NCBI GenBank assembly: GCA_963668425.1
Contig: OY764332.1
Location: 41,241 to 105,240, forward strand
DNA: 64,000 nucleotides
Direction: 5' to 3'
Source of the DNA: Minisyncoccota bacterium
GTDB lineage: Bacteria; Patescibacteriota; Minisyncoccia; Phycocordibacterales; JABAAK01
Position numbers and translations under genes: made by a program. This document shows, piece after piece, positions 9,981 to 41,664 of the stretch. The stretch's first letter is position 1, and each line of letters begins with the position of its first letter. The notes under the pieces are model-generated. The model did not search any database. It was not told the DNA's origin and was given only the letters and a program-made list of their open reading frames with translations.

Positions 9981-10103
9981 ACAAAAGAAGGAACTATTTC
10001 AAGTGTAGCATGTACTGAAAGAGAGATTAAAAAAAACGGATGTGGAAAACTGCATATGTGCCATCTGACTCCCCTTCTTTTTTGTTAGGTTAGGGATTGG
10101 TGC

Positions 10104-10220: not shown

Positions 10221-12416
10221 CTATTTGCAGATATCTAACCGATCAGGAATGAACTGGACGCGGTTATTGTGCGGGTGTATTATGTTGGCATTATAGACTG
10301 CACCCTGAAACTCAATATAACTATCAGGATTGGCTGCGCAGTTGGAATCACCTGCATGATCAATTTCTATAGTCATGGTCTTATAAGCCCCGGACACACT
10401 ACCAATAGCATTTGTTTGCAGAATAGGGTAAAACTTAGATGGATCGCTTCCAACGTAGGATTGACCAGCAGCTATCGCTCTAACACTATATTTAGAATTG
10501 GTTATTGATCCTATGGGTGCTCCTTTAGTACGAGTAAGATCGGTTACTTTGAACATCTCGCGCCCGGTCTCTAAAGTCACATACGCTTTTCCACCCCGTC
10601 GTTCAATTGAGGTATAGATGTAGTTCCAATCATCGTTGTTGATGATGAATATGTCGACGCTCTGGGTCACGCCGTCAATTTGATCCCTGCTGATCAATGC
10701 CCGCTTTCGGAGTATATTATCATCCTTTATCCCTCCGGAATAAGAAAGAAGGCCGTTCTTAATGCTATAACTGATATCTTCGTATGTGGCCGTGTGGCTT
10801 GTCCTGATGCCGTCAGCTATCTTGACAGTGCTGGGAATCTCACACTTACCTTCTACCCACTCGTCGGACTCATTAAAGACAATAGGCAGTTCGCAAAACG
10901 CTCTTATGAGAATTATATTAAACGGAGTAAACCTATGGACTCTTGTCCAACCTTCTGGTCTGTGCATTCGTATTGCATAGATTCCAACATCCCCATTTGG
11001 ATCAGTTATCATAGTTCCTGAGATGTCAAATATCTTCTCACCCAAGTCATAGACACAACCTCCTATAGAACATCTATCAAATACCCACATACTTTGATCG
11101 GGAGTGAATACACCATTGGAATATGTGCCGTTATACCAGGTAAATTCAGCTCCCCATGCTTCTAATTCAGAAATACCTTCAATTCTGAATGGCGCCTGTG
11201 GAGGAATCTGTTTAACGGATATATCTAGTGTATTCCAGGTCAACCCAAATGACCCCCTAAATTCTTCACCCTCCCTTACGGCAATATTATCGTTCGCAAT
11301 CGGCCCGCCCCCAAATCTTCCGACAATTTCATCGTCAGTGGTTTGGATAAACAGCTGACCTTGAAGGGCGGCAGGAAGATTTACCTCGTGCCTATTCCCG
11401 TCAGTGTATATTTCGTCATTATGATTCCCGAAGACAATCCTGATAGCGCCAGAAGGTTCATCGCCAACTGATGGACGTATGATGATTCTATTAGGATCAG
11501 TGTTACCGTAAGTGATATGAATACCACCGCCAGTGCCAAGTGAGTTACTCCATGCAGTTGATGGAGAATTGAAGAAACAAACTACCCTACCCGCACTCTC
11601 TGGTACGGTAATCGTGTAGACAGGAGTGCCACCAGAAGTCCGCGAAGCAGTCACCTGATTGCAGTTGCCACTAGTATTGCCGGGATTATCTATAACTGTA
11701 AATGGTGCCCCATTCTGTTGCTGTTGCTGTTGTTGTGCTTGCGGCGCTTGGTCAACTACAACGACTTCTGGTGTGGGGTCAGGAGTTGGGTCGGCTTGTG
11801 GCGCAGGATCAGGAGTAGGTTGCGGAATTGGGTCTGCTGTGGCTGCGGCTTTTGCCTTCATACACAGAATGGCGTCAACTACGGCATCCCATCTACCAGA
11901 AGAGTTATGGACTTTCTGGAGTCGCTTTGCCTCGTCAAGAGTAACCACAGTAGCGTCGCTTGCTTGTCCATTAAGGGTGTCGCGGACGCGTGTCCAGCGT
12001 TCAACATGCTCTGCACCGTTTTGGGTCTCGTCAATGTAGCTCTGTACGTTGGCTAGCAGTTCATCGGAGACACAAGAGCCGTTGGCGTTCAAACACAACA
12101 TGGAGCCCAGTACTGGGTCCCATCTCGCTGCCGAAAAGCGACTCCACATGTTGCGAGCTTCGCTTAGCGTGGTTGGTGTTTGGCCGTTGTCCTCGCCGAA
12201 TGCTGCCAGAACTTTCATCCACCTAGCGACATGAACAGGTCCGTGTTGTACCTCTCCCGCCCATGATTTTACATCAGATATCAAGCCATTTGCTACACAT
12301 TGCTGAGTAGGTTGCTGAGTAGAGGCCGAAGTAGGAATTAATAAAGCAAAGAAAGCAAGAGTAATGATAAGCACGGTTGTTACGCTTGCTAACCGCCATG
12401 TTTTTAAATTTTTCAT
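10221..12416 (-). CDS. Secreted hypothetical protein (731 aa): signal peptide, two ~70-aa Trp/Arg-containing repeats, a Pro/Gln-rich linker with a Q7 run, and a ~480-aa C-terminal domain of unknown function.
   Basis: N-terminus MKNLKTWRLASVTTVLIITLAFFALLIPTSAST. Repeats of the form ...HV.RW..V....G........T..EA......S..RWD.V... occur at about residues 45-115 and 120-190. The linker reads PIPQPTPDPAPQADPTPDPTPE...QAQQQQQQQ (CAA/CAG repeat at 11716-11740). No family was recognised by eye. Confidence 0.65.
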   Translation of the reverse strand: MKNLKTWRLASVTTVLIITLAFFALLIPTSASTQQPTQQCVANGLISDVKSWAGEVQHGPVHVARWMKVLAAFGEDNGQTPTTLSEARNMWSRFSAARWDPVLGSMLCLNANGSCVSDELLANVQSYIDETQNGAEHVERWTRVRDTLNGQASDATVVTLDEAKRLQKVHNSSGRWDAVVDAILCMKAKAAATADPIPQPTPDPAPQADPTPDPTPEVVVVDQAPQAQQQQQQQNGAPFTVIDNPGNTSGNCNQVTASRTSGGTPVYTITVPESAGRVVCFFNSPSTAWSNSLGTGGGIHITYGNTDPNRIIIRPSVGDEPSGAIRIVFGNHNDEIYTDGNRHEVNLPAALQGQLFIQTTDDEIVGRFGGGPIANDNIAVREGEEFRGSFGLTWNTLDISVKQIPPQAPFRIEGISELEAWGAEFTWYNGTYSNGVFTPDQSMWVFDRCSIGGCVYDLGEKIFDISGTMITDPNGDVGIYAIRMHRPEGWTRVHRFTPFNIILIRAFCELPIVFNESDEWVEGKCEIPSTVKIADGIRTSHTATYEDISYSIKNGLLSYSGGIKDDNILRKRALISRDQIDGVTQSVDIFIINNDDWNYIYTSIERRGGKAYVTLETGREMFKVTDLTRTKGAPIGSITNSKYSVRAIAAGQSYVGSDPSKFYPILQTNAIGSVSGAYKTMTIEIDHAGDSNCAANPDSYIEFQGAVYNANIIHPHNNRVQFIPDRLDICK

Positions 12417-12744: not shown

Positions 12745-13665
12745 CTAGTGTGGGCGGTAGACCACTATTCCTGGTTTGTTTTTGAGGTAGGTGAGGAAGT
12801 CGTCGTCAATGACCTGCTGTGCTTTTTCTCTGGAGGAAGCGTGGCGTAGGTATGTTCCCCTGCTGTTTTTGATAAAGATACCGGTGTGCGTCACATCAAG
12901 TCCGTCAATGTCTGTGTATATTCCAATGTAGTCACCGGTGCGAAGGTTCTTCATGCTCTCGTCGGTAATAGCAGTAGACGGTATGTAGTTGATTGTACGA
13001 GACAGTATCGGAATTCCTTCTAGAAAAACACTGCCGTCTTTTTTCTGATTTAATTGCTTTTTAACAGGTATCGCCACATTACCCCCGACCTCTTTTGTCA
13101 CATCAGATACTTGATCACTGTTATACTTCACCCAGTCAGAAAAGAAGTGGTTTCTGTATTGAAACTCTACAATTCCGGATTTATATCGGGTGTGCTGTAA
13201 TGCGTTCAGAAAGGTGTCATATGAATCTGACAGGCGGGCTGCTTCAACATAATCAATATACGTAAAGCAATCCAACCCGGCGAGATGGACGGTGAGCTTT
13301 TCACGTGTTTTTGCACTTCCTACGAGGGTGTTCCCTTCATACGGGGTGCCTAAAAATTTCTCTGAGATGTGAGTAATTTGTTCTCCGATATCAGATAGGT
13401 GTGTGGATCCCTGTATTACACCAGAGAGTGTTTTTTTGGTCCAATTGCCAAGGTTTGTCTGTATGGCGTTCCTTGCCATTAGTCGCTCTCTTGCATGCAC
13501 TCCTGCTGGTATTGGGTCACCATGTTCCTGTGGTTCTATCTTGGCAAGCATAGAGAGCATGCTATATGCTATCCAGCTGATACCAATCAACATGCCCACC
13601 ATTCCTAAAAGTATTACTTTTGCTTTCATACTTATAGCGTACACTATGCCTGTCTTACACTGCAT
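12745..13665 (-). CDS. Membrane-anchored putative cell-wall hydrolase, NlpC/P60-superfamily (DUF1460-like, Cys/His papain-like).
   Basis: N-terminal TM segment MKAKVILLGMVGMLIGISWIAY. A GLDCFTYIDYVEAARL segment (candidate catalytic Cys) and ...DVTHTGIFIKNSRGTYLRHAS (candidate His) resemble DUF1460/amidase-like proteins. The assignment is from memory of the family. Confidence 0.4.
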   Translation of the reverse strand: MQCKTGIVYAISMKAKVILLGMVGMLIGISWIAYSMLSMLAKIEPQEHGDPIPAGVHARERLMARNAIQTNLGNWTKKTLSGVIQGSTHLSDIGEQITHISEKFLGTPYEGNTLVGSAKTREKLTVHLAGLDCFTYIDYVEAARLSDSYDTFLNALQHTRYKSGIVEFQYRNHFFSDWVKYNSDQVSDVTKEVGGNVAIPVKKQLNQKKDGSVFLEGIPILSRTINYIPSTAITDESMKNLRTGDYIGIYTDIDGLDVTHTGIFIKNSRGTYLRHASSREKAQQVIDDDFLTYLKNKPGIVVYRPH

Positions 13666-19839: not shown

Positions 19840-19930
19840 CTATACAGTATTAAAAAGAATCTTTCTTTACTAATTGTACCACATATTCTGTATTTGGCAA
19901 TAACTTCTGGACTGCACACTACATGCTATT

Positions 19931-21215
19931 TTCCATACTACCCTGCCCTCTGGACAGCACGTCTATTTGTATGATGTCGCTGTGTGTTATTTTTTAATCT
20001 ACTAGTAGGCACTATGTGCATAGAGCATGGTGCCGTGTTACACTTTAGGTACTACAAAGGAGTTTTTTTCTATGGCATTACGTACCACAAAACAATATGT
20101 TCTTTCTGTTGCACTACTTGTGCTTGTTGTTGGTGTGTTTCTTTTTTTCTCCCCTGCACAGGTTGTAAGAGATCCTTCTGTGTCTGAAGAGAGTTTGGTG
20201 CAATCATCTTTACCGAGTCGTGCACCTGAGGGATATGCAGTGCCTGCACGAGAGGTAGTCACTCTTCCCTTTACCCATGTCAGTGCTGATCGTCTTCGTC
20301 TTGGAGATGTTCGGGAGGTGGCTGAAGGAAGGTGGGTAACGGTCATAAATCCATCTGTTGATAATTACTACAATGTATCGCCTGATGGGCAATGGTCGTT
20401 ATTCACAGGATTAAATCTTTACATCACCAGAACCGATGGATCTGGTGAAGTGCGCGAACTCTTTGCAAGAGAAGCAAATGATTCTAGCAAAGGGTATATT
20501 TTTAGATCTGCTTTCATTCCAACCGCTTGGTCTTGGGATAGCAATCGTGTCTTTTACAAGATGATACGCAGATATTTGGTTGGTCAAAATTTTTTGAATG
20601 CTGAATACGAACAATGGATTGAGAGTGTTAACATTGAGACAGGTGAAGTTACTCGCCATCCTGACATTGGTTTTAGTGATAATCTTCATAGTCACGCTAC
20701 TGCTCGCTATCCTACTGACCCAATTCTGTTTGATGACAGACCTGATTACCGACTGCATGGTATCAAAACTCATGATGGCTCTGTCAGATGGGTAATTCCT
20801 GGTTTCAGCCCATTTTCTCTTTCACCGAATAAGCGATTGGTTCTAGGGCTTGAAGAAGGTGGCAAAATAATCGGTGAAACAGGATATATCATGCATTACC
20901 TTATTTATGCCGTTGATGGAACTGGTCCGCTATACAGTTTTTACGCTGCAGATACCCCCAAATGGTCCCCTGATAGCAGTAAGTTCGCCTATTACCATGT
21001 AACAGAACGTGAAGCTGATACTGGCATCCTTCTTGCCTCAGATATCTATCTTATGAACATAGACGGCACTGGTATAACTCAACTCACTGATACGCCTGAT
21101 ATTCCTGAGCGTCTCCATGGTTGGACCCCGGATGGTCGTCTTGTTTTTAGTATCGAAGAAGATTTGTATATCGCTGACCTTGTTACAGAATAATTGAAAG
21201 GAGAAAACTGATGAA
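19931..21215. repeat. Direct repeat copy 1 (~1.29 kb): promoter region, TolB-like gene, and the first 8 codons of the downstream amidase gene.
   Basis: 19931-20060 is about 97% identical to 24701-24830. The genes encode about 70% identical proteins over their 5' halves. The 3' ~420 nt are nucleotide-identical (20790-21215 versus 25560-25985). Copy 1 ends with atgaaacgagttttttgttgtg (MKRVFCC), the same start as the amidase gene at 25981. Confidence 0.9.
20027..21193 (+). CDS. Membrane-anchored TolB-like beta-propeller (PD40/WD40-like repeat) protein, paralog 1.
   Basis: N-terminal TM segment VALLVLVVGVFLFFSP. PD40-type repeats: YNVSPDGQWSL, KWSPDSSKFAYYH, HGWTPDGRLVF. The start may be the internal Met (MALRTTKQ) at 20072. 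Confidence 0.7.
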   Translation: MVPCYTLGTTKEFFSMALRTTKQYVLSVALLVLVVGVFLFFSPAQVVRDPSVSEESLVQSSLPSRAPEGYAVPAREVVTLPFTHVSADRLRLGDVREVAEGRWVTVINPSVDNYYNVSPDGQWSLFTGLNLYITRTDGSGEVRELFAREANDSSKGYIFRSAFIPTAWSWDSNRVFYKMIRRYLVGQNFLNAEYEQWIESVNIETGEVTRHPDIGFSDNLHSHATARYPTDPILFDDRPDYRLHGIKTHDGSVRWVIPGFSPFSLSPNKRLVLGLEEGGKIIGETGYIMHYLIYAVDGTGPLYSFYAADTPKWSPDSSKFAYYHVTEREADTGILLASDIYLMNIDGTGITQLTDTPDIPERLHGWTPDGRLVFSIEEDLYIADLVTE

Positions 21216-21329
21216 ACGAGTTTTTTGTTGTGCATGTATTTGACACAGGACTTGCAGCATGACATACTTTTTGCAGAGCCTATTATTGATTTGAAAGATT
21301 ACATATATACAGGAGGAAATGTAGTGAAA

Positions 21330-21620
21330 CATATGTTTACTGCAATTGTTATGCTGTTGCTGTGCATAATCGTTACTGGATGTGAAAAAGGTGTTGATAT
21401 ACTCACACCTGCTCTTTCTGAAGACCCGGTTCATATATCAGATGATGAGTCAGAAATAGCTGTATCTGATGATGTTGAGTGCTTTGACGATCCACAGGAT
21501 GTGCCTGAATGGTGGTATTCTGTTGTGAGCGTTCCAGATCCTGATGATGGTGTGCCGGATCATAATTTTATACTTTGCGATGAAGATCAGGAAGAAATCA
21601 TGGATGAGGATCTGGAGTAA
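21330..21620 (+). CDS. Small acidic lipoprotein, hypothetical (track ORF 21225..21620; start taken at the internal Met before the signal peptide).
   Basis: MFTAIVMLLLCIIVTGCEKG gives a lipobox. The C-terminal half is very Asp/Glu-rich (DDESEIAVSDDVECFDDPQDVPEWW...DEDQEEIMDEDLE). Confidence 0.4.
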   Translation, partial: HMFTAIVMLLLCIIVTGCEKGVDILTPALSEDPVHISDDESEIAVSDDVECFDDPQDVPEWWYSVVSVPDPDDGVPDHNFILCDEDQEEIMDEDLE

Positions 21621-21770: not shown

Positions 21771-23510
21771 TTATTTTGTATGTGTTCTTTCTTGAATTTT
21801 AGCTTTTATGATATCTGTCTCTAATCTGTACAATAGATGAGATATGCTACTTAATATATCTAGGCAATCTTTATCAGTAAAGATGTTTTTTGAGAAATCT
21901 ACTTCTTTTTTCTTAGTGGCTGTTTCATGATGACGGGTTATGTTTGCGGCGGCACAGCACCCTCTTGCTATACAGAAATTACTTTCCTCTAAATCATTTT
22001 TCACAGCTTTATCTAGTGGAACTTTTTCCAAACTTCCGCAATCTTTGCCATCTTTGCTATCTTTGCTAAGATATTCATTAATTAGTTTTGCGCCACTCAT
22101 ATTCTTCTCCCCACTGACCTTTTTTAACTCCATTTCATATATTTCCCATGCTTTCGTTAATGCGCTTGTGTAATCTTTCTTCTTGTAGTCTGCAAGAATT
22201 TTATTCTCCTTCTTCAATTTTTTATGGAGATAGCGCCAATGAAATTCTGCATATTCGGGAACAATCTCCAACACATCGCTCACTATTTTTTCTTCACGAT
22301 CTGGATGCTCTTCCGCAAGCAAAAACAATGATCGTAACGGTTCTTTTTTGTCATCAGGAATATTCTCTTGATACTTCTTAAAATCAATACTACTTAACTT
22401 TTCTGATATTTTTTTGGTAGCGCTCTCTTTCCTCATTTCACGCCACTTTTTTTCGGTACCGTTTATTATATCTTTCAAGCAATCTTCCAAAGGTTTTAAT
22501 TCTTCGTTATCCCAATCCAAAGTTCTCCTGTTCGTTGCGACCATGTCCTCTTCTTTATCCTCAATAAAGTCTATATGAATTTCTCCTGTAATGTATCTGA
22601 AGAAATTGCTTGAGGCACTGCCGAAGGCAGTCGGCTCATTAACCAATTTATTTCTTGCAAAGAGAGAAACACCTTGCATATCTTTCCGCGGTAGAGGCGA
22701 TCTTGCAGTTTTTATGATGCCTTTAATCTTACCCTTGAACACATTGTGTTGCTCAGGTATTTGTTCATCCCCTACTTGAAACTCGCCCTCTATATCAATT
22801 CCCTCAACTCTCAGTTTGTTGCTCAGAGTGTACTCATTACCATCTCCTTCTTTAACTACCACCAAAAAATCGTTGCCAAAGTTGACCCTCCTCGATAAAC
22901 TAACTGCAAGCTCTTTTACATCAATCTTTGTCTTTCTTTTGACCTCTGTAAGAGTGATTTTTGTTCCGCTACTCATCTGTGTATCAACGTCATTCTCTAT
23001 TAGCTTAAAAGAACACTTGTCGTCTTGAGATTTCTCAATATCTCTCCAATCCATTTGAAACATGTTCATTTTTCCATTTTTAATTGTTCTCACCTCAACA
23101 ATATTTGCTATACCGAACATAGCAAGCTTCCCCAACCCTTTTCTACCAGTAATTTTTCGTCCGTTTGGACTGGTATCGCCCTCCTCTTCTTTCCTTCTCT
23201 TTCTTCCGACTATGAGAAAGCGCTTTGCTAAATCTTCACGGCTCATGCCTAAACCATCGTCCTCAATCTCTATGCTCTTTACACTGTTCTTATCTTGCTG
23301 TATTGAAATCGTAATCTTTTTTGCATCTGCATCATATGCATTAGAAATACTCTCCACAAGCCCGTGTGGCAATCGTGTATACATCTTTATACCCAAATCA
23401 CCTATAGTCCTCGGGTCAAAAATTAATGGCAAACTGTCATTCATAGTAAATATTCTAAATCCACCCCTCTTTGTTAATGGAATGTTCTTTGAAGATAAAA
23501 TATAAAGCAA
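21771..23510 (-). CDS. GHKL-superfamily (HATPase_c_3 / MutL-MORC-like) ATPase, the likely second component of a restriction-modification or defence system with the adjacent cytosine methyltransferase.
   Basis: Bergerat-fold motifs: LVESISNAYDADA (N-box), IEIEDDGLGMS (G1 box), TGRKGLGKLAMFG (G2 box). The likely true start is MNDSLPLIFDPR. It lies 6 bp downstream of the methyltransferase on the same strand. The C-terminal ~300 aa is Lys/Glu-rich with scattered Cys and is unassigned. Confidence 0.7.
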   Translation of the reverse strand: MLYILSSKNIPLTKRGGFRIFTMNDSLPLIFDPRTIGDLGIKMYTRLPHGLVESISNAYDADAKKITISIQQDKNSVKSIEIEDDGLGMSREDLAKRFLIVGRKRRKEEEGDTSPNGRKITGRKGLGKLAMFGIANIVEVRTIKNGKMNMFQMDWRDIEKSQDDKCSFKLIENDVDTQMSSGTKITLTEVKRKTKIDVKELAVSLSRRVNFGNDFLVVVKEGDGNEYTLSNKLRVEGIDIEGEFQVGDEQIPEQHNVFKGKIKGIIKTARSPLPRKDMQGVSLFARNKLVNEPTAFGSASSNFFRYITGEIHIDFIEDKEEDMVATNRRTLDWDNEELKPLEDCLKDIINGTEKKWREMRKESATKKISEKLSSIDFKKYQENIPDDKKEPLRSLFLLAEEHPDREEKIVSDVLEIVPEYAEFHWRYLHKKLKKENKILADYKKKDYTSALTKAWEIYEMELKKVSGEKNMSGAKLINEYLSKDSKDGKDCGSLEKVPLDKAVKNDLEESNFCIARGCCAAANITRHHETATKKKEVDFSKNIFTDKDCLDILSSISHLLYRLETDIIKAKIQERTHTK

Positions 23511-23516
23511 GCATCC

Positions 23517-24575
23517 TCAAGTTACATGCCTGTGATGTTTTATTATAGCATCCCCCATTTTTTTTGCATAAAATGGTGGCACTGCATTGCCGATCATGCG
23601 GGCTATTTGGCTGATGCTGTCACCAATAAAAGTGTATTTTTTTGGAAACGTTTGCAAGGTTGCTCCCTCTCTTAGGGAAATGGCACGGTTCTCTTCTGGG
23701 TGAGCAAATCTACCGTTTGATATGCTAAAAAACTTTGTAGTGAGCGTGGGTGCTGGCCTGTTCCACGACATACGACCGTATGTGTCACTGAACGATGTAT
23801 TTCCATTCTTATGCTTATATGCGTTAATCTGTAAATCAGTATTTGCCCAGACATTTCGTGAACCGCCATCCTTTTTTGTCATTTTCAATCTCCTCAGATT
23901 TTCTTCGCTTAGTCCAGCCACTGTGTGAAGAAATCTTGTTGTATCTTTATGACCAGCAGAGATTTTTTTAAACCCGTTCTTTTCTCCTATAAAATCAGCA
24001 ACAACAGGCCTATTTTTTGTCTTTTTTGGAAAGACACTTTTGTCACTCACCCTATTGGCAATTAAAGAAAATCTTTTTCTCGTTTCTGGTACTCCATAGT
24101 GATGGAGGTTTACCACTTCATAATAAACTGTGTAACCACTTTTTTGCAATGATTGCACAAATATATCTAACCCACTTTCCTTGTATTTTTTTAATATACC
24201 AGGAACATTTTCAACGACAACATACCCAGGGTTATAATATTTTACAAAGCGGTGAAAATCATTCAAGAGATGCTTTGATTTTTTTGATCTGTTTTTATTG
24301 GTTCTGATTATTGTCCAGTATTGACAAGGACTGCATCCGACGAATATAAGATTATCATCATTTCTCTTGATGTTAATTTCTCTTGACAGGTAACTCTCTT
24401 TTAATTTTTTAATATCAGCTAGGATATATCTTGATCCCTTTATGTTTGCCTCATAGGTTTCTTGGCATTTTGGATCAATGTCAATACCAGCAAGAACATC
24501 AATACCTGCTTTTTGTAAGCCGAAACTCATTCCCCCGCCAGAACAAAAAAAATCAACTGCTTTTATTGCGTTCAT
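23517..24575 (-). CDS. DNA (cytosine-5)-methyltransferase.
   Basis: Motif I VDFFCSGGGMSFGL; motif IV GCSPCQYWT (PCQ); motif VI VVVENVPGIL (ENV); motif X RMIGNAVPPF. Length is 352 aa. Confidence 0.92.
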   Translation of the reverse strand: MNAIKAVDFFCSGGGMSFGLQKAGIDVLAGIDIDPKCQETYEANIKGSRYILADIKKLKESYLSREINIKRNDDNLIFVGCSPCQYWTIIRTNKNRSKKSKHLLNDFHRFVKYYNPGYVVVENVPGILKKYKESGLDIFVQSLQKSGYTVYYEVVNLHHYGVPETRKRFSLIANRVSDKSVFPKKTKNRPVVADFIGEKNGFKKISAGHKDTTRFLHTVAGLSEENLRRLKMTKKDGGSRNVWANTDLQINAYKHKNGNTSFSDTYGRMSWNRPAPTLTTKFFSISNGRFAHPEENRAISLREGATLQTFPKKYTFIGDSISQIARMIGNAVPPFYAKKMGDAIIKHHRHVT

Positions 24576-24700
24576 ACACTGTTATGGTAGCATCCTATAC
24601 TGCCTCAAAGGTTTCATGACCAATTATTGTAAAAATACCGTTATATTCATTATGACAGGCGATACAGGATTTTTCTGTAACTTTTATGTGTGCTACTTTC

Positions 24701-25985
24701 CATGCTACCCTGCCCTTTGGACAGCACGTCTATTTGTATGATGTCGCTGTGTGTTATTTTTTAACCTACTAGTAGGCACTATGTGCATAGAGCATGGTGC
24801 CGTGTTACACTTTAGGTACTACAAAGGAGTTTACTATGGCATTACTTAAGACAAAACGATATGTTTTTTCTGTTGCACTGCTTGTGCTTGTTGGTGGCGT
24901 TGTTTTTTTACTTGTTTCTCCTGCACAGGTTGTAAGAGAGTCCGCATTACCTGAAGAGAGCTTGGTGCAATCGTCTTTACCGAGTCGTGCACCGGTAGGG
25001 TATGAGGTACCTACACGACCTGTCGTTACCTTTCCCTTTACGCATGTTAGTGCTGATCGTCTTCGTCTTGGGAATATTCAAGAGGTGTCTGAAGGAAGGT
25101 GGGTAACGGTCATAAATCCATCTGTTGATAATTACTACAATGTATCGCCTGATGGGCAATGGTCGTTATCCAGAGGATTAAATCTTTACATCACCAGAAC
25201 CGATGGATCTGGTGAGAAGCGTGCACTGCTGACACACTCAAGAGATAATCCTGATGATATAATATATATCTCTACCAATCGAATTGTTTGGTCCTGGGAT
25301 AGCAGTCGCATTTTCTACCCATTTAGGCGACAATACTACCTTGATGCAGAAAGTCTAACTAGTGAATATGAACAATGGGTTGAGAGTGTTAACATTGAGA
25401 CAGGTGAAGTTACTCGTCATACTGATATTGGCTACTACGCCAATCTTCATAGTCACGCTACTGCTCGCTATCCTACTGACCCTGTTATATTTGACGATAG
25501 TTTTGATTACCCACCAGAAGGCCCTCGTGGTATCAAAACTCATGATGGCTCTGCCAGATGGGTAATTCCTGGCTTCAGACCATTTTCTCTTTCACCGAAT
25601 AAGCGATTGGTTCTAGGGCTTGAAGAAGGTGGCAAAATAATCGGTGAAACAGGATATATCATGCATTACCTTATTTATGCCGTTGATGGAACTGGTCCGC
25701 TATACAGTTTTTACGGTGCAGATACCCCCAAATGGTCCCCTGATAGCAGTAAGTTCGCCTATTACCATGTAACAGAACGTGAAGCTGATACTGGCATCCT
25801 TCTTGCCTCAGATATCTATCTTATGAACATAGACGGCACTGGTATAACTCAACTCACTGATACGCCTGATATTCCTGAGCGTCTCCATGGTTGGACCCCG
25901 GATGGTCGTCTTGTTTTTAGTATCGAAGAAGATTTGTATATCGCTGACCTTGTCACAGAATAATTAAAAGGAGGAAACTAATGAA
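24701..25985. repeat. Direct repeat copy 2 (~1.29 kb), partner of 19931-21215.
   Basis: See copy 1. The two copies bracket the small lipoprotein gene plus the methyltransferase/ATPase cassette. Confidence 0.9.
24794..25963 (+). CDS. Membrane-anchored TolB-like beta-propeller protein, paralog 2.
   Basis: 389 aa. Same architecture as 20027..21193. The C-terminal 140 aa are identical at both protein and nucleotide level. Confidence 0.7.
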   Translation: MVPCYTLGTTKEFTMALLKTKRYVFSVALLVLVGGVVFLLVSPAQVVRESALPEESLVQSSLPSRAPVGYEVPTRPVVTFPFTHVSADRLRLGNIQEVSEGRWVTVINPSVDNYYNVSPDGQWSLSRGLNLYITRTDGSGEKRALLTHSRDNPDDIIYISTNRIVWSWDSSRIFYPFRRQYYLDAESLTSEYEQWVESVNIETGEVTRHTDIGYYANLHSHATARYPTDPVIFDDSFDYPPEGPRGIKTHDGSARWVIPGFRPFSLSPNKRLVLGLEEGGKIIGETGYIMHYLIYAVDGTGPLYSFYGADTPKWSPDSSKFAYYHVTEREADTGILLASDIYLMNIDGTGITQLTDTPDIPERLHGWTPDGRLVFSIEEDLYIADLVTE

Positions 25986-27597
25986 ACGAGTTTTTTGTTG
26001 TGTAGGTGTGTTGTTGTGTTTTATGTTGCTACAGAGTGCTATTGCCCAGACCTATCGTATCTACATAGATCCAGGGCATTACAAGGGCAATGGTGCTAGT
26101 CATGTGCATGAGAAAACCGGGGAGCTGATACGTGAGGAGGATATATCTCTTGCAGTTGGCTTGAAGCTTCGTGCTCTTCTCATGAGTGACACCTTTACTG
26201 GTGTCACCTGGGATGTGCGGATGTCTCGCATGGGACCAGATTCACGTACTCGTGCACTGAGTGACCCAAAGAATAGAGCAGAAGATGCGATAGATTTTCG
26301 AGCAGGTATATTCATCAGCATCCACTGTAATAAAGGTAAGGGAGATGGTACTGAAACCTTTTGGGCTGACAGAAAGGATACTGATCTTGACAACAGAGGA
26401 ATACCGATAGGATTTGCATTCAAGAAACAAAGTGTCAACAATAAGAGTAAACGCCTTGCTGGACTTGTGCACAAGCACATGGTATCCCGTGGTAATTGGT
26501 CTAGTCGTTCTCATGATACAGAAAGTAGTGAGGGAGAAACTCTGGATCAAAAATATATGATTAACCGCACGGCTAAATTCTTTGAGGACGACACTCGATT
26601 CCCCGGCTTCGGAGGACATATTCCAATACTTCTGGCGCTTAAGGGTGTTCCCGGCTGCCTCAATGAGATAGGGTTTCTTGACAATCAGAAGAACTTGGAA
26701 AAGTTGGTGTCTCCGTACTGGCAACATCGGTTTGCTGAGGCGTATCGGGATGCTATTTTTGAGTATGTTGGATTAGAGATGCCAGAGTATCTCACTGTCT
26801 ATTTGGAGCCAGGTCAGAACATGATCTCTTGGCCTGGTATTCCTATTGGCACTGGTAGCAGAGGAGTCCTTATCAACAGTGAGCAGTTTCCAGCGACTCG
26901 AATACTGAGACGATGGAATCCTGAGAAAAAAGAACATGAACGAGTTAGTCAGGTTGTCTTTGGTGAAGGGTATCTACTGTACGTACCAGCACGAAGAGCG
27001 GAGGGAGAGTTACTAGATATTTCCTTTTTCCCTCAAACTTCTTACACACTACAGTTGAAAAGTGGGTTCAATATGATTGGTAGTGTTTCTGGCCATACCT
27101 TGTTCTCAACTATTGTAGATAGAGTGAATAGAGGAGGTGTACAGTGTCTTGACTCAACGTTCTTGATTTTGCGTAATGGGAGGTTGACCGTGGATAGTGA
27201 TGGTGTCATGCGACCAGGTGTTGGATATCTTGTGCGGGCATGTAAAGATGTTGAGATAACGGTGTCTGCTTCGTTGGCAGCACCTTCTGTGGTGTCTCTT
27301 CCTGCAGAGACCCAGCTGTTTGCTAACTTCCCTAACCCTTTCAATCCTGAGACGTGGATACCGTTTCATTTGCAGAATGCTGGGGAGGTTACTCTTTCTA
27401 TCTATGGTGTCTCAGGACACCTTGTTAGAACTATACCTCTTGGTCATCTTTCCTCAGGTTCCTATGATACCAAAGACACTGCTGCCTACTGGGATGGTAG
27501 GAATGAACACGGTACTCAGGTTGCCTCTGGTATCTACTTCTATACACTAGAGACACAAGGTGTTTCTTTTACTAGAAAGATGGTGGTGTTGAAGTAG
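25981..27597 (+). CDS. Secreted N-acetylmuramoyl-L-alanine amidase (Amidase_3 family) with a C-terminal beta-sandwich resembling the T9SS type-A sorting domain (FlgD-Ig-like).
   Basis: Signal peptide MKRVFCCVGVLLCFMLLQSAIA. Amidase_3 motifs RIYIDPGHYKGNGAS and IFISIHCNKGKGDGTETFW. The C-terminal 90 aa, FANFPNPFNPETWIPFHL...VTLSIYGVSGHLVRTIPLG...AAYWDGRNEHGTQVASGIYFYTLET...RKMVVLK, matches the consensus N[YF]PNPFNP..TI.F.L......V.L.IYd.sGrlVrtL....l.aG.....WDG.d..G..vasGvYfy.L.......KmvllK closely. Confidence 0.8.
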   Translation: MKRVFCCVGVLLCFMLLQSAIAQTYRIYIDPGHYKGNGASHVHEKTGELIREEDISLAVGLKLRALLMSDTFTGVTWDVRMSRMGPDSRTRALSDPKNRAEDAIDFRAGIFISIHCNKGKGDGTETFWADRKDTDLDNRGIPIGFAFKKQSVNNKSKRLAGLVHKHMVSRGNWSSRSHDTESSEGETLDQKYMINRTAKFFEDDTRFPGFGGHIPILLALKGVPGCLNEIGFLDNQKNLEKLVSPYWQHRFAEAYRDAIFEYVGLEMPEYLTVYLEPGQNMISWPGIPIGTGSRGVLINSEQFPATRILRRWNPEKKEHERVSQVVFGEGYLLYVPARRAEGELLDISFFPQTSYTLQLKSGFNMIGSVSGHTLFSTIVDRVNRGGVQCLDSTFLILRNGRLTVDSDGVMRPGVGYLVRACKDVEITVSASLAAPSVVSLPAETQLFANFPNPFNPETWIPFHLQNAGEVTLSIYGVSGHLVRTIPLGHLSSGSYDTKDTAAYWDGRNEHGTQVASGIYFYTLETQGVSFTRKMVVLK

Positions 27598-27654
27598 GTG
27601 TAGTAAAGTAAAGACCCACACCATGGTGTGGGTCTTTTTCATTTCTTCTGTTTC

Positions 27655-28350
27655 TTATTCCTGCTCTTCAATCAAGTCAAGATTGAGTTCATCAGGAACA
27701 AGAAAGGCGAATTTTCCACCAAATGCAAATGGATCATTGGGGTGAAAACCTCGTGCATCCTCGTCTATAAGTAATTCTAGTAGAAGTATCCAAAGGCCGA
27801 TGTTGGTGGCAGGGTCTGGATATGCGTCATCCCGTGTGATGACAGGCACCTTCGGGATGTCATTTTCAACACCGACAATCGGTGGATCAATTGCCACAAT
27901 AAACTCACCAAGACGATCTCCTGTGGAATAATCGGGCTGATCAAGGAACTGCTCCCGTAGTGCAAGAGCGACTTCAAATGTCATGGGTGCAAGCCCCATT
28001 GTTTCTGCCCTTTTAAGAATAGTATCGTACTGGACGATTTCATCTTCAGCGAATCCCATCTCCGGCATAGAGAGAACGACAACATGATACACTTCTCGCT
28101 TTCCGGAGAGTATGAGATGATCATTTATTGCTTCCTCTGTCCATCCGCTGACAGTAATATTACGTTCACGAAGACCACGAAATATATCCTCAGTGGTCTT
28201 ATGCACAGTAACAACAGTGAAATCAGGACGAAATTTTTCCAACTCTAATGCTTGCCCTTCATCTAATGGATTTTCACCTCCAGAGCAAGATAGTAGTGAT
28301 AGACAGACAAGACACAGTAGTAGTACCGTGAAAGAAAAGCGATGAAACAA
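27655..28350 (-). CDS. Lipoprotein, hypothetical.
   Basis: MFHRFSFTVLLLCLVCLSLLSCSGGENP contains a lipobox (LLSCSGG). Length is 231 aa. Confidence 0.5.
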   Translation of the reverse strand: MFHRFSFTVLLLCLVCLSLLSCSGGENPLDEGQALELEKFRPDFTVVTVHKTTEDIFRGLRERNITVSGWTEEAINDHLILSGKREVYHVVVLSMPEMGFAEDEIVQYDTILKRAETMGLAPMTFEVALALREQFLDQPDYSTGDRLGEFIVAIDPPIVGVENDIPKVPVITRDDAYPDPATNIGLWILLLELLIDEDARGFHPNDPFAFGGKFAFLVPDELNLDLIEEQE

Positions 28351-40117: not shown

Positions 40118-40951
40118 CTACAGAATCACTTTTTGTTTTTCGTAGAGCATTGGGAGAGTATTTTGCCTCATGCGGAATTTGGTGCCGTGGTTGTGTCTGG
40201 TACGAGCATCAAAATCAATAAGTATCTTCCCCTCTTCCAGCGCTTTCAGAAATCCTGTGAAAGTGAATTTCTGCAACATCATAATTTTTGTATAATGGTA
40301 GTGTTCTTTGTTGCGTATCTTTTTTACTTCCGCCTGTACATAAAAAGTATTGAGCAGTTTTGTCCCAGCTGTATGCTCTAAGTCGTCAAACCCCCAATAC
40401 GGTTGCGGGTCAAACTCATCTAGTCCTGCGCGTTTTTTGACGGATGCAAGCCATTGTTTATGCCGAACGTCAACACTCCCAGCATCAAAAGAAACAGCTA
40501 CTTTCTGGTTTTTTCGATCAATCTTCACCATAAACCCACGATCGCTACGTGATTGACCATGTATGGTCACACGAAAACTCATCTCATTTTTTGGGTACCT
40601 TCCGCCGCTTTCCCTGTGTCTCCAGCCGTATAAGGGGAGGAGTACTTGTGGCACAAGTCGTAGTGCGCGAGGTGATGGTTCACAATGAAACAGTGTTGTA
40701 AGCGAGGAGGAATTGACACGTTGCGTCTTTAATTCCCACTCTGCAGCATTTGGTATAGGCAAATTATTCTCTTCAATGCCGAGCAAGTCCTCAAGCGTGT
40801 TGCCAACACCGCCATCGTTACCGTGCCGCGTGTTTGGTACCCACTCCATTTCTACAATCTTTTTTAACTTTTCTGTTAGCCCTCTTTTTGTATATATCTT
40901 TTGCTTTTTTACTCTCATACCTGAAGAAGGAGTTTTGGTTGAGATTGACAT
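40118..40951 (-). CDS. Putative type II restriction endonuclease, MutH/MvaI/BcnI-like PD-(D/E)xK fold.
   Basis: ...VGNTLEDLLGIEENNLPIPNAAEWELKTQR gives D...ExK, like the MutH DLGD...ELK catalytic segment. It overlaps the upstream methyltransferase by 37 bp on the same strand. Length is 277 aa. Confidence 0.45.
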   Translation of the reverse strand: MSISTKTPSSGMRVKKQKIYTKRGLTEKLKKIVEMEWVPNTRHGNDGGVGNTLEDLLGIEENNLPIPNAAEWELKTQRVNSSSLTTLFHCEPSPRALRLVPQVLLPLYGWRHRESGGRYPKNEMSFRVTIHGQSRSDRGFMVKIDRKNQKVAVSFDAGSVDVRHKQWLASVKKRAGLDEFDPQPYWGFDDLEHTAGTKLLNTFYVQAEVKKIRNKEHYHYTKIMMLQKFTFTGFLKALEEGKILIDFDARTRHNHGTKFRMRQNTLPMLYEKQKVIL

Positions 40952-41664
40952 TGTTTGATTCTTTGTTTTGCCATCTCACAGTATTCTGGGGAAATATCAA
41001 TGCCGATATAATCTCTTTGTAAATTTACTGCTGAAACTGCCACTGTACCTGAACCCATAAATGGATCTAAGACAACTTGTGCGCTGGTTGAGGATATAAT
41101 ACGTTCTATTAAGCCAGATGGAAACGCAGCTGGATGGCCATTCTTCATTTCTTGAGTAAACTCCCACACATCACCACATCCGTTTGCTTTTGGCAGTAAT
41201 TTGAACTCTGGCTTTGCGATGAGGTAGATTACTTCGTAGGTAGGTAAGAAGTATCCTGGATTAAAATTAAAACCGCCCTTTCTACGCCAGATAATGATTT
41301 GGCGAACTGGAAAACCTGCTACAATATCTTGCCGATCCTGTAGTAAACCGCCCTGCACACGCCACTTATGGTTATAGAAAATTGCACCATCTTCAGGAAT
41401 AAGCCGCATCATCTCAGCTAGGCAGTTTCGTTGCCACTGTACATATTTCTCATGAGGCATACAGTCATCGTAATGCGAGTAACCATTTTGTAGTTTGGCA
41501 TTTGCCCATTTACCACCATTACCATTTTTTAGACCGTTGCCAGTAGAGTTTTTGATGTTGTATGGTGGCGAAGTGACCACCAAATCAATCGATTCGCTTG
41601 GTATTTGTTTCATAGCATCCAACACATCACCGCAAATAATGGTATTTAAAAACTTCTTTTTCAT
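40915..41664 (-). CDS. Beta-class amino-DNA methyltransferase (N4-cytosine or N6-adenine; the SPPY motif favours N4C).
   Basis: Motif IV DLVVTSPPYN precedes motif I VLDPFMGSGTVAV (beta permutation). C-terminal ...DYIGIDISPEYCEMAKQRI. Length is 249 aa. Confidence 0.9.
   Translation of the reverse strand: MKKKFLNTIICGDVLDAMKQIPSESIDLVVTSPPYNIKNSTGNGLKNGNGGKWANAKLQNGYSHYDDCMPHEKYVQWQRNCLAEMMRLIPEDGAIFYNHKWRVQGGLLQDRQDIVAGFPVRQIIIWRRKGGFNFNPGYFLPTYEVIYLIAKPEFKLLPKANGCGDVWEFTQEMKNGHPAAFPSGLIERIISSTSAQVVLDPFMGSGTVAVSAVNLQRDYIGIDISPEYCEMAKQRIKQCQSQPKLLLQV

What the first reader, a model, noticed from the sequence alone, without database searches (positions are those of the whole stretch)
25981..27597. 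Cell-wall amidase carrying a T9SS-type C-terminal sorting domain in a genome that otherwise looks like CPR/Patescibacteria
The last ~90 aa (NFPNPFNPETWIPF...LSIYGVSGHLVRTI...YWDGRNEHGTQVASGIYFYTLE...KMVVLK) match the Por/T9SS type-A C-terminal domain consensus almost position by position. The N-terminal half is an Amidase_3 peptidoglycan hydrolase. T9SS is regarded as specific to the Bacteroidota/FCB group, yet the gene content here (short IF-2, short ValS, many tRNAs without CCA, small genome style) points to a different, streamlined lineage. Either the organism uses this domain with a different export or anchoring machinery, or the taxonomic inference is wrong. A secreted amidase could be an attack or entry enzyme directed at a host cell wall.
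Basis: partly seen in the sequence, partly recalled or inferred. Interest (0 to 1): 0.55.

Follow-up and report, generated by a model that had tools for sequence, protein, structure and literature searches.

The report
T9SS-tailed wall amidase in a CPR bacterium
A tiny-genome CPR bacterium, of a group thought to lack an outer membrane, carries a cell-wall-cutting enzyme with a tail that normally directs export across an outer membrane; the gene probably came from Poribacteria-like bacteria, and the tail is still tightly conserved, so it likely has another job here.

Summary
ORF 25981..27597 (+, 538 aa) encodes a Sec signal peptide, an Amidase_3 domain with its metal-binding and catalytic motif residues conserved, an unannotated ~160-aa beta-rich module, a disordered linker, and a C-terminal beta-sandwich. 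That sandwich passes TIGR04183 (T9SS type A; 29.3 bits, cut-off 23) and PF13860 FlgD_ig, but misses PF18962 (23.2 vs 27). The host genome is CPR: GroEL is 93% identical to Candidatus Kaiserbacteria, and related contigs are 0.6-0.85 Mb.

New findings:
- The gene forms an operon with a membrane-anchored PD40 beta-propeller gene.
- The family splits into a CPR clade and a diderm clade that includes a Poribacteria-labelled genome.
- The C-terminal domain's closest relatives are Poribacteria proteins (52-63% identity).
- "Module + C-terminal domain" is a common tail of secreted proteins, and within the 64-kb window the amidase is its only carrier.
- The cassette is duplicated, recombined, and sits near transposases and restriction-modification genes.
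- The C-terminal domain is the most conserved part, with no relaxation in CPR.

Most likely this is a horizontally acquired T9SS-cargo-type amidase cassette, exported by Sec alone, whose tail was kept for binding or retention. I could not check the rest of the genome for T9SS genes.

The parts
24836..25963 (+). Partner gene: PD40/TolB-like beta-propeller protein anchored by an N-terminal transmembrane helix (375 aa from the conserved MALLKTK start). It stops 17 nt before the amidase ATG.
   Evidence: ORF and start context. It is 47% identical to the L081 partner and 31% to the partner in Poribacteria-labelled L001, which carries a PD40 repeat. A profile search finds the same gene upstream of the amidase in L081, L084 (3 copies), L108, L109, L086 and L001. 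Homologs share 12 contig lengths with amidase homologs.
25970..25974 (+). Shine-Dalgarno sequence GGAGG, 6 nt before the amidase ATG
   Evidence: Read directly from the sequence.
25981..26046 (+). Sec (SPI-type) signal peptide, residues 1-22 (MKRVFCCVGVLLCFMLLQSAIA), with predicted cleavage between A22 and Q23
   Evidence: Translation. The N-terminus is conserved across homologs. The cleavage site is inferred from the AxA rule, not computed.
26059..26757 (+). Amidase_3 N-acetylmuramoyl-L-alanine amidase domain, residues 27-259. The motif residues H33, E52, H115 and E229 are conserved.
   Evidence: PF01520 scores 83.1 bits. Invariant and near-invariant columns are listed. PDB relatives include 4rn7, CwlV (1jwq), CwlD (7rag) and AmiC (4bin). 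Model pLDDT is mostly 84-95.
26782..27273 (+). Unannotated beta-rich module, residues 268-431, with two GWN...GYW half-repeats. It recurs in front of T9SS-type C-terminal domains.
   Evidence: No Pfam or NCBIfam hit covers it. In the model it is all-beta with one helix, pLDDT about 85-95. The profile search finds 2,941 representatives. In 20 of 40 sampled hits it is followed by FlgD_ig, Por_Secre_tail or CHU_C.
27274..27327 (+). Disordered linker, residues 432-449
   Evidence: pLDDT is below 50 over residues 432-457. Its length varies across the family.
27328..27597 (+). T9SS type A-like / FlgD Ig-like C-terminal beta-sandwich, residues 450-538, plus the stop codon
   Evidence: TIGR04183 scores 29.3 bits (cut-off 23), PF13860 36.1 (27) and PF18962 23.2 (27). 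Foldseek matches PorU 6za2, PorZ 5m11 and FlgD 7eh9/3osv. It is the most conserved module of the family, with 65.5% mean pairwise identity.
27610..27647 (+). Intrinsic-terminator-like hairpin (12-bp stem) and T-run that end the operon
19924..21243 (+). Duplicated copy A of the cassette's 5' part. It comprises the upstream region, a PD40 paralog (20072..21193, 80% aa identity, last ~140 aa identical) and an 11-codon amidase stub (21211..21243, MKRVFCCACI*).
   Evidence: Direct repeats at 85-99% identity with a 4.77-kb offset. DNA alignment, protein comparison, sequence, profile hit.
21771..24575 (-). Type II restriction-modification pair lying between the two cassette copies: an HATPase_c_3/Hypoth_Ymh restriction enzyme (21771..23510) and a C5 cytosine methylase (23517..24575)
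   Evidence: Pfam results. PADLOC assigns REase_II and MTase_II.

Best explanation
This is a peptidoglycan amidase (N-acetylmuramoyl-L-alanine amidase, Amidase_3) with the full architecture of a type IX secretion cargo: signal peptide, catalytic domain, a 'pre-CTD' beta module, a linker and a type A-like C-terminal domain (CTD). It sits in a CPR (Paceibacteria, Kaiserbacteria-like) genome.

Shown here. It is the second gene of a two-gene operon whose first gene encodes a membrane-anchored PD40 beta-propeller. The same cassette occurs in diderm genomes, including one labelled Poribacteria. The module plus CTD is a common tail of unrelated secreted proteins, two of them Poribacteria-labelled. 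No other ORF in the 64-kb window carries the CTD, and no CTD-only hit among the top 120 lies on a contig matching a known CPR contig. Within CPR the cassette has persisted long enough to diversify, duplicate and recombine. The CTD is the most conserved module and is not relaxed in CPR.

Inferred. The cassette entered the CPR lineage once, by horizontal transfer from a CTD-rich diderm lineage that was Poribacteria-like. In the CPR cell, which is proposed to have no outer membrane, the Sec signal peptide alone puts the enzyme outside the membrane. The CTD therefore cannot act as an outer-membrane export signal there. It has been kept as an Ig-like binding or retention module, for the PD40 partner, the producer's own envelope, or a target cell surface.

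The paralog arrays, the orphan PD40 copy with an amidase stub, and the variable catalytic half joined to a constant tail all resemble conflict or interaction systems. I therefore favour an extracellular wall-cutting enzyme used on neighbouring or host cells, with the PD40 protein as its regulator or self-protection partner, over a plain housekeeping autolysin.
For: Identity and architecture.

CPR host: GroEL relatives and contig sizes, with contig lengths 647,271 and 130,672 shared between the GroEL and amidase hit lists. L081 is syntenic with the window: PD40, amidase, HhH-GPD, RNase HII, DnaE.

Operon: a 17-nt gap, a Shine-Dalgarno sequence and a terminator.

Cassette in diderm contexts: L001, labelled Poribacteria, on a 2.12-Mb contig, is the only full-length hit among 185,579 species-representative genomes. 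L085 lies beside an RND pump and an OEP outer-membrane factor. L086 lies beside an integrase. L083 also carries a WD40 protein with the CTD.

Transfer direction: CTD-only hits are Poribacteria 'T9SS type A sorting domain' proteins at 52-63% identity. The middle module is widespread in front of CTDs. No other CTD ORF occurs in the window or in L081. The tree separates members with CPR contexts from members with diderm contexts.

Constraint: mean pairwise identity is CTD 65.5%, amidase 52.8%, module 39.0%. CTD identity is 71.6% in the CPR clade and 69.0% in the diderm clade.

Conflict-like dynamics: the same-contig paralogs P0001 and P0004 are 70% identical in the catalytic half and 98-100% in the module and CTD. 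The source contig carries at least four PD40 paralogs. The window contains an orphan PD40 copy with an amidase stub. L084 holds three PD40 genes and two amidases beside an IS1595 transposase, inside a ribosomal-protein operon. L108 has the cassette at the same site.

Literature: T9SS is described as unique to the FCB superphylum (PMC12421860, PMC12398890). Patescibacteria are proposed to lack an outer membrane, and peptidoglycan hydrolases were essential for epibiotic growth of Ca. S. epibionticum (PMC12102498).
Against: Only 64 kb of a contig of about 697 kb could be read. Absence of T9SS and outer-membrane genes from the whole genome is therefore assumed from general knowledge of CPR, not shown.

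The direction of transfer rests on distribution arguments and a midpoint-rooted neighbour-joining tree. In that tree the two clades are reciprocal rather than nested.

Whether Poribacteria themselves have a working T9SS is unknown; I found no literature on it. The CTD may therefore belong to a wider, T9SS-independent class.

The PD40 partner was not detected upstream of the amidase in L083 or L085 at E <= 1e-3. PADLOC has no match for either cassette gene. Nothing shows that the PD40 protein binds or inhibits the amidase.

High CTD conservation could partly reflect gene conversion between paralogs rather than selection alone. PF18962 is below threshold.
Confidence: 0.5

Rival explanations
1. 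It is a housekeeping autolysin. The amidase trims the CPR cell's own peptidoglycan during growth or daughter-cell separation. The module and C-terminal domain hold it in the wall zone, and the TolB-like PD40 protein positions or activates it.
For: The organism makes peptidoglycan: MurC is in the window, along with an SLT_2/PG_binding_1 protein and an AmiA-like protein. The gene keeps its position across CPR relatives, beside housekeeping genes or inside a ribosomal-protein operon. The catalytic motifs are conserved. From general knowledge, TolB-type propellers are linked to septal wall processing in diderms.
Against: The cassette looks horizontally acquired, multi-copy and recombining, with orphan partner copies and nearby mobile or restriction-modification genes. 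That pattern is unusual for division amidases. This reading does not explain why a T9SS-type tail is the best-conserved part.
Confidence: 0.25
2. It is host-surface mimicry. The CPR bacterium lives on a Poribacteria-like host that decorates its surface with CTD proteins. The host-type module and C-terminal domain dock the secreted amidase onto the host's CTD-handling surface proteins (PorV or PorU/PorZ-like) or onto its surface polymer, concentrating the enzyme at the contact site.
For: The closest relatives of the C-terminal domain outside the family are Poribacteria proteins. The module plus C-terminal domain is a standard tail of such proteins. The domain is under strong constraint in CPR. 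CPR-type and diderm-type carriers come from sample series with similar names. CPR bacteria are typically epibionts, and wall hydrolases can be essential for that lifestyle (PMC12102498).
Against: There is no evidence that Poribacteria are the host, or that they have T9SS attachment proteins. The two clades are only 47-59% identical across domains, so the transfer is old and says little about current partners. An amidase applied from outside cannot reach a diderm's wall without a breach in the outer membrane.
Confidence: 0.1
3. It is an assembly or binning artefact, or a very recent insertion of foreign DNA, so the C-terminal domain is passive baggage of no significance in CPR.
For: The protein family also occurs in diderm genomes. 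Mobile-element genes lie near some copies.
Against: The gene lies between CPR housekeeping genes on a long contig. CPR copies have diverged to 53% identity while keeping their position. The C-terminal domain is as conserved in CPR as in diderms. GC content at the locus (0.40-0.45) is within the window's range.
Confidence: 0.03
4. The C-terminal domain belongs to a broader family of FlgD-Ig-like surface-protein tails that never depended on T9SS in these lineages, Poribacteria included. Its presence in CPR would then involve no change of mechanism at all.
For: FlgD_ig is the best-scoring Pfam model and PF18962 is sub-threshold. The fold matches FlgD Ig domains at least as well as T9SS proteins. 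No report of T9SS machinery in Poribacteria was found. Reviews restrict T9SS to the FCB superphylum (PMC12421860).
Against: TIGR04183 passes its curated cut-off in the window protein and hits 23 of 24 family members. Many related tails also hit PF18962 and CHU_C. The position at the extreme C-terminus, combined with a Sec signal and diverse enzyme or adhesin heads, is the T9SS cargo pattern.
Confidence: 0.15

Closest known systems
T9SS type A cargo proteins of Bacteroidota (for example P. gingivalis gingipains, PorU, PorZ), defined by the TIGR04183 / PF18962 C-terminal domain
   Same: It has an N-terminal Sec signal, an enzymatic head and a beta-sandwich domain of about 90 aa at the extreme C-terminus. 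That domain passes TIGR04183 and resembles the PorU and PorZ structures. By inspection it also has PNP, GxY and a terminal K-x-hydrophobic-K motif.
   Different: The host is a CPR bacterium, a group proposed to have no outer membrane. No T9SS genes occur in the readable 64 kb. PF18962 is below its cut-off. Within the window the amidase is the only carrier of the domain.
Poribacteria 'T9SS type A sorting domain-containing' proteins (P0046, P0053, P0054, P0100)
   Same: The C-terminal domain is 52-63% identical. P0046 and P0053 also carry the same unannotated module in front of it. A Poribacteria-labelled genome (L001) carries an orthologous PD40 + amidase cassette.
   Different: Those proteins have other head domains (LRR, cohesin/dockerin, WD40) and sit in multi-megabase diderm genomes. 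Whether these genomes carry many such tails was not counted; L083 holds a second one. In the CPR window and L081 the tail is found on this amidase only.
Amidase_3 cell-wall amidases (CwlV 1jwq, CwlD 7rag, C. difficile 4rn7, AmiA/B/C)
   Same: The catalytic domain and its motif residues match, with profile E-values of 1e-20 to 1e-9 against solved structures.
   Different: Those enzymes use AMIN, SH3, LysM or SPOR-type wall-binding domains, or none. None of the listed matches has a T9SS-type tail or a PD40 partner gene. The family has variable insertions between the GTETFW and NEIGF motifs.
FlgD flagellar hook-cap Ig-like domain (PF13860; 7eh9, 3osv)
   Same: This is the best-scoring Pfam model and the closest compact structural match, with rmsd 2.4 A over 77 residues at 23-30% identity.
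   Different: There is no FlgD N-terminal domain and no flagellar gene context. The domain is a terminal tail on a secreted enzyme.
Secreted antibacterial effector plus adjacent immunity gene (polymorphic toxin logic; PMC3482391 appeared in a search listing but was not read, so the general principle rests on my own knowledge)
   Same: There is a tightly linked partner gene, extra orphan partner copies, a truncated effector stub, a variable catalytic part joined to a constant trafficking tail, and mobile elements nearby.
   Different: The partner lies upstream and is a 375-aa beta-propeller. Nothing shows that it inhibits the amidase, and PADLOC does not match either gene. This is an analogy, not a demonstrated membership.

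Membership tests
Amidase_3 (PF01520) N-acetylmuramoyl-L-alanine amidase | Profile score above the curated cut-off | tested here: met
   83.1 bits against 27, residues 27-259. All 24 family members hit amidase models.
Amidase_3 (PF01520) N-acetylmuramoyl-L-alanine amidase | Zn-binding His/Glu/His and the catalytic Glu at the DPGH, E, SIHxN and xE-GF motif positions | tested here: met
   H115 and E229 are invariant. H33 and E52 are at least 90% conserved in A1 and invariant in A2. The assignment is by motif position from general knowledge, not by structural superposition.
Amidase_3 (PF01520) N-acetylmuramoyl-L-alanine amidase | Cleaves the MurNAc-L-Ala bond of peptidoglycan | not testable with these tools
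   Needs an enzyme assay.
T9SS type A C-terminal sorting domain | NCBIfam TIGR04183 score at or above its cut-off | tested here: met
   29.3 bits against 23, model positions 2-71 of 72. 23 of 24 family members hit at E <= 1e-3.
T9SS type A C-terminal sorting domain | Pfam PF18962 score at or above its gathering cut-off | tested here: not met
   23.2 bits against 27, although the alignment runs the full length of the model, positions 2-75 of 75.
T9SS type A C-terminal sorting domain | Located at the extreme C-terminus of a protein with an N-terminal Sec signal peptide | tested here: met
   The domain spans residues 450-538 of 538. The N-terminus MKRVFCCVGVLLCFMLLQSAIA|Q is conserved in homologs. 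The signal peptide was judged by eye.
T9SS type A C-terminal sorting domain | Ig-like beta-sandwich fold resembling solved T9SS C-terminal domains | tested here: inconclusive
T9SS type A C-terminal sorting domain | T9SS machinery (SprA/Sov, PorV, PorU, PorK/L/M/N) and an outer membrane in the same organism | tested here: inconclusive
   None of the 31 window proteins scanned has such a family. Only 64 kb of about 697 kb was readable. The literature proposes no outer membrane in Patescibacteria (PMC12102498) and restricts T9SS to FCB (PMC12421860).
T9SS type A C-terminal sorting domain | The domain is removed by PorU and the cargo is attached to anionic LPS | not testable with these tools
   Needs proteomics or biochemistry.
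FlgD hook-cap protein | An FlgD N-terminal domain together with the Ig-like domain, in a flagellar gene cluster | tested here: not met
   Only the Ig-like part matches (PF13860 36.1 bits, residues 465-525). The rest of the protein is an amidase, and no flagellar genes occur in the window.
Effector-immunity (conflict) cassette | A tightly linked partner gene that is conserved with the effector | tested here: met
   The gap is 17 nt. The partner lies upstream of the amidase in L081, L084, L108, L109, L086 and L001, and 12 contig lengths are shared. It was not detected in L083 or L085.
Effector-immunity (conflict) cassette | Orphan partner copies and effector remnants; variable toxin part with a constant trafficking part | tested here: met
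   The copy at 19924-21243 has an 11-codon amidase stub. The source contig has at least four PD40 paralogs. P0001 and P0004 are 70% identical in the catalytic half and 98-100% in the tail.
Effector-immunity (conflict) cassette | The partner protein neutralises the effector | not testable with these tools
   Needs co-expression or binding assays.

The most novel reading that the evidence does not exclude
The conserved host-type tail (beta module plus T9SS-like C-terminal domain) is a docking device. A sponge-associated CPR epibiont secretes an amidase that mimics the surface-protein tails of Poribacteria-like hosts. This lets it bind the host's CTD-handling or anchoring apparatus at the contact site. 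If so, T9SS-type C-terminal domains would have a secretion-independent, inter-species targeting role, and a candidate host would be named for this CPR clade.
Probability: 0.1. Interest if true: 0.85.

Novelty: new variant of a known kind. Interest (0 to 1): 0.55.

Why it matters
T9SS C-terminal domains are treated as export and anchoring signals that only make sense with an outer membrane and the T9SS machine of the FCB group. Here one is kept under strong constraint in a lineage proposed to have neither. That would mean the domain has a second, secretion-independent function such as binding or retention. It would also mean that annotating a protein as 'T9SS sorting domain-containing' does not by itself imply T9SS.

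The cassette also documents gene flow between CPR bacteria and Poribacteria-type bacteria. That gives a concrete, testable lead on who these uncultured CPR cells interact with.

As by-products, the analysis defines a widespread, unannotated beta module that precedes such tails, and a PD40-amidase gene pair whose paralog dynamics suggest a role in conflict between cells.

Tried and rejected
- **Exact look-ups.** The window protein, P0001 and P0004 are not in the contig index. The rest of the 696,550-bp genome could therefore not be read or scanned for T9SS genes.
- **Cluster look-up.** It gave no names or accessions.
- **Genome-representative scan.** It did not return the window's own genome, only L001 as a full-length relative. 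The other 79 loci are generic Amidase_3 matches.
- **Phage origin.** IMG/VR has no full-length member, only generic endolysin-type Amidase_3 hits. Rejected.
- **Short ORF 21225..21620 as an amidase remnant.** Rejected. The real remnant is the 11-codon stub at 21211..21243.
- **Other carriers of the C-terminal domain or middle module in the window.** None found in a six-frame HMM search.
- **Literature.** Nothing on T9SS in Poribacteria or on T9SS tails in CPR.
- **Sample origin.** A search for sample accessions found nothing relevant. One of the three terms, a BioProject number, was my own guess and matched unrelated papers. The sponge origin of the samples is therefore an inference from the Poribacteria link, not a result.
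- **PADLOC.** No match for the PD40 protein or the amidase.

Full report
**1. The observation**

A GGAGG ribosome-binding site lies 6 nt before the ATG. A 12-bp hairpin with a T-run follows the stop codon.

Pfam finds Amidase_3 over residues 27-259, at 83.1 bits against a cut-off of 27. At the C-terminus it finds three overlapping models:
- FlgD_ig: 36.1 bits, passes its cut-off of 27.
- Por_Secre_tail (PF18962): 23.2 bits, below 27, although the alignment covers model positions 2-75 of 75.
- CHU_C: 19.8 bits, below its cut-off.

NCBIfam TIGR04183, the T9SS type A sorting domain, scores 29.3 bits and passes its cut-off of 23. It hits 23 of 24 family members. So the domain call is right, though 'almost position by position' overstates the score.

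AlphaFold models give a pLDDT of 76 for the whole protein and 80 for the C-terminal half. They show an amidase fold (residues 23-263), an all-beta module (269-429), a disordered linker (432-457) and a beta-sandwich (462-536). Foldseek against the PDB ranks P. gingivalis PorU first and also lists PorZ. Both are T9SS proteins with C-terminal domains of their own. The compact, accurate matches are FlgD Ig-like domains, with rmsd 2.4 A over 77 residues.

The amidase motif residues H33, E52, H115 and E229 are conserved across the family. An active enzyme is therefore expected.

**2. The organism**

The window's GroEL is 93% identical to a protein named Candidatus Kaiserbacteria. It is about 60% identical to Zambryskibacteria, Paceibacterota, Nomurabacteria and 'Patescibacteria group' proteins. 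Its nearest relatives lie on contigs of 0.6-1.1 Mb.

The rest of the window agrees with a CPR genome. IF-2 is 490 aa and ValS 716 aa. The window also holds DnaE, ParB, RelA/SpoT, MurC, L25, two restriction-modification systems and ten tRNAs.

An identical amidase (P0001) and an identical GroEL (P0122) both lie on a 696,550-bp contig. Contig lengths 647,271 and 130,672 also appear in both hit lists. The CPR inference is correct and the gene is not a binning artefact.

None of the 31 window proteins scanned has a T9SS or outer-membrane family. I could not read the other roughly 630 kb of the genome.

**3. A two-gene cassette**

Seventeen nucleotides upstream ends a gene at 24836..25963. It encodes a protein with an N-terminal transmembrane helix and a PD40/TolB-like beta-propeller.

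The same pair occurs in several places:
- L081, a CPR relative on a 451-kb contig. The partner is 47% and the amidase 53% identical. Downstream synteny with the window is kept through HhH-GPD, RNase HII and DnaE.
- L084 and L108, where the cassette sits between rplP and rpsQ inside a ribosomal-protein operon. In L084 there are three PD40 genes and two amidases next to an IS1595 transposase.
- L109, L086 and L001.

PD40 homologs share twelve contig lengths with amidase homologs.

**4. Where it came from**

Among 185,579 species-representative genomes, the only full-length relative is on a 2.12-Mb contig labelled Candidatus Poribacteria (L001). There the amidase is 42% and the PD40 partner 31% identical. 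The neighbouring genes are a BCCT transporter, SBP56 and a Type ISP restriction-modification enzyme.

Other members also sit in large-genome or diderm settings:
- L085 is next to an RND pump with an OEP outer-membrane factor.
- L083 has a sigma-70/BNR protein, a cytochrome and a WD40 protein carrying the same C-terminal domain.
- L086 is beside an integrase on a 159-kb contig.

A neighbour-joining tree of the amidase plus module separates a clade holding every member with a CPR context from a clade holding every member with a diderm context.

Outside the family, the C-terminal domain's best hits are Poribacteria 'T9SS type A sorting domain' proteins at 52-63% identity.

The middle module has no Pfam or NCBIfam model. 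A profile search of 1.84 billion representatives finds 2,941 proteins carrying it, usually near the C-terminus. In 20 of 40 sampled proteins it is followed by a FlgD_ig, Por_Secre_tail or CHU_C tail. The head domains are proteases, cohesins, LRRs, cadherins and fn3 domains.

So 'module plus tail' is a stock ending of secreted proteins in tail-rich lineages. In the CPR window and in L081, by contrast, the amidase is its only carrier. The simplest reading is one old transfer of the whole cassette from a Poribacteria-like diderm into this CPR lineage. The direction is inferred, not proven. No full-length member occurs in IMG/VR.

**5. The tail is not decaying**

Mean pairwise identity across the family is 65.5% for the C-terminal domain, 52.8% for the amidase and 39.0% for the module.

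Within the CPR clade the C-terminal domain is 71.6% identical, against 69.0% in the diderm clade. This holds even though the CPR catalytic domains are the more diverged, at 55.9% against 60.1%. The NFPNPF, SG-YF and KM-LK positions are invariant in both clades.

Patescibacteria are proposed to have no outer membrane (PMC12102498). T9SS is described as unique to the FCB superphylum (PMC12421860, PMC12398890). A T9SS-only signal should therefore be free to decay in CPR. It has not decayed. Gene conversion between paralogs may contribute, but it cannot explain conservation between genomes.

**6. Dynamics inside the genome**

The source contig holds a second amidase, P0004. It is 70% identical in the catalytic half and 98-100% identical in the module and tail. 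The contig also holds at least four PD40 paralogs.

The window itself contains a duplicated copy of the cassette's 5' part, at 19924-21243, matching 24691-26013 at 85-99% identity. This copy has a PD40 paralog (80% aa identity, with the last ~140 residues identical). It also has the amidase ribosome-binding site and first seven codons, followed by a stop (MKRVFCCACI*). A lipoprotein gene and a type II restriction-modification pair lie between the two copies.

Orphan partner genes, an effector stub, and a variable enzymatic part joined to a constant tail are what one sees in conflict or interaction systems. Division amidases do not usually look like this.

**7. How it most likely works**

Shown: the protein has a Sec-type signal peptide, a catalytically competent amidase, a widely recurring beta module and a T9SS type A-like tail. 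It is co-transcribed with a membrane-anchored propeller protein. It is probably foreign in origin and long retained.

Inferred: in a cell without an outer membrane, Sec export already places the enzyme outside. The tail therefore cannot serve as an outer-membrane export signal. It is retained as a binding or retention module, for the PD40 partner, the cell's own envelope, or a target surface.

I favour a role in acting on other cells' walls, with the PD40 protein as regulator or self-protection. Peptidoglycan hydrolases were essential for the epibiotic growth of another Patescibacteria member (PMC12102498).

Rival readings, with my estimates:
- Housekeeping autolysin: about 0.25.
- A tail family that never depended on T9SS: about 0.15.
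- Deliberate mimicry of a Poribacteria-like host's surface proteins: about 0.1.

**8. Comparison with known families, and novelty**

It is a member of Amidase_3. Its tail passes the NCBIfam definition of a T9SS type A sorting domain but fails the Pfam cut-off. The organism-level requirement, a T9SS and an outer membrane, could not be tested beyond the window and is not expected to be met. It works like a Sec-secreted wall hydrolase with a C-terminal Ig-like module. It probably does not work like T9SS cargo in this host.

I found no report of T9SS-type tails in CPR, or of T9SS in Poribacteria. I rate it a new variant of a known kind, of moderate interest. The finding is real and somewhat surprising. 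It also yields a testable lead on CPR partners. The central claim, that no T9SS is present, still needs a whole-genome check.

Noticed in passing
window 3-9998, minus strand: A stop-free frame of more than 3,332 aa runs off the left end of the window, so the ORF listing does not report it. It starts with a signal-peptide-like N-terminus near 9998 and is built of degenerate ~195-aa repeats (585-nt period, 60-87% identity). Only weak Ig-like hits were found (Big_13, HYR, Glucodextran_B). It is probably a giant surface protein. Its C-terminus lies outside the window, so whether it ends in a sorting domain is unknown.
   Followed up: partly
window 26782-27273; proteins P0046, P0053, P0280-P0422: The ~160-aa module between the amidase and the tail is an unannotated domain with two GWN...GYW half-repeats. 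It has 2,941 representatives in the 50%-identity library, and a T9SS-type C-terminal domain often follows it directly. It has no Pfam or NCBIfam model and no convincing PDB match.
   Followed up: partly
L084 6257-17747 and L108 7842-12772: In two related small-genome contigs (204 kb and 847 kb, from different samples) the cassette sits inside the S10/spc ribosomal-protein operon, between rplP (L16) and rpsQ (S17). In L084 it is duplicated and lies beside an IS1595-family transposase. The operon also stops after L5 and is followed by SocA_Panacea and ribonucleotide reductase genes.
   Followed up: partly
window 21771-24575: A type II restriction-modification pair lies exactly between the two copies of the duplicated cassette segment. 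It consists of an HATPase_c_3 + Hypoth_Ymh restriction enzyme and a C5 cytosine methylase. Next to it, at 21324..21620, is a 98-aa acidic protein that looks like a lipoprotein.
   Followed up: partly
window 40118-41664: A second restriction-modification system: an MvaI/BcnI-family endonuclease overlapping an N4/N6 DNA methylase.
   Followed up: no
window 42025-44938: A 505-aa protein combines an NQR2/RnfD/RnfE-like membrane part with FAD_binding_6 and NAD_binding_1 domains. An ApbE flavin transferase gene lies next to it. Redox membrane proteins of this kind are not what one expects in a minimal CPR genome.
   Followed up: no
window 12745-13665, 45354-47189, 53291-54727: The window holds further cell-wall genes: an AmiA-like protein (PF07313), an SLT_2 lytic transglycosylase with a PG_binding_1 domain, and MurC. 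The organism therefore makes and remodels peptidoglycan independently of the cassette.
   Followed up: no
L086 (158,901-bp contig whose name ends in '_c'): The cassette lies beside a phage-type integrase, a HEPN protein, a group II intron-like GIIM/HNH gene, two large lamin-tail-domain proteins and a Big_1 protein with a FlgD_ig tail. The contig name suggests a circular element at high coverage. It could be a plasmid-like carrier of the cassette.
   Followed up: no
window 26044-26049 (residues A22|Q23): The predicted signal-peptidase cleavage would leave an N-terminal glutamine, as it would in many family members (AQT, AQR, AQK). An N-terminal Gln after cleavage is described as a Bacteroidetes-specific 'Q-rule' (PMC5837995, abstract only). 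This may be coincidence.
   Followed up: no
window 10221-12416 (minus strand) and 27655-28350 (minus strand): A 731-aa protein has no Pfam or PADLOC match. A 231-aa protein that looks like a lipoprotein lies directly downstream of the amidase terminator and is absent from the syntenic locus L081.
   Followed up: no
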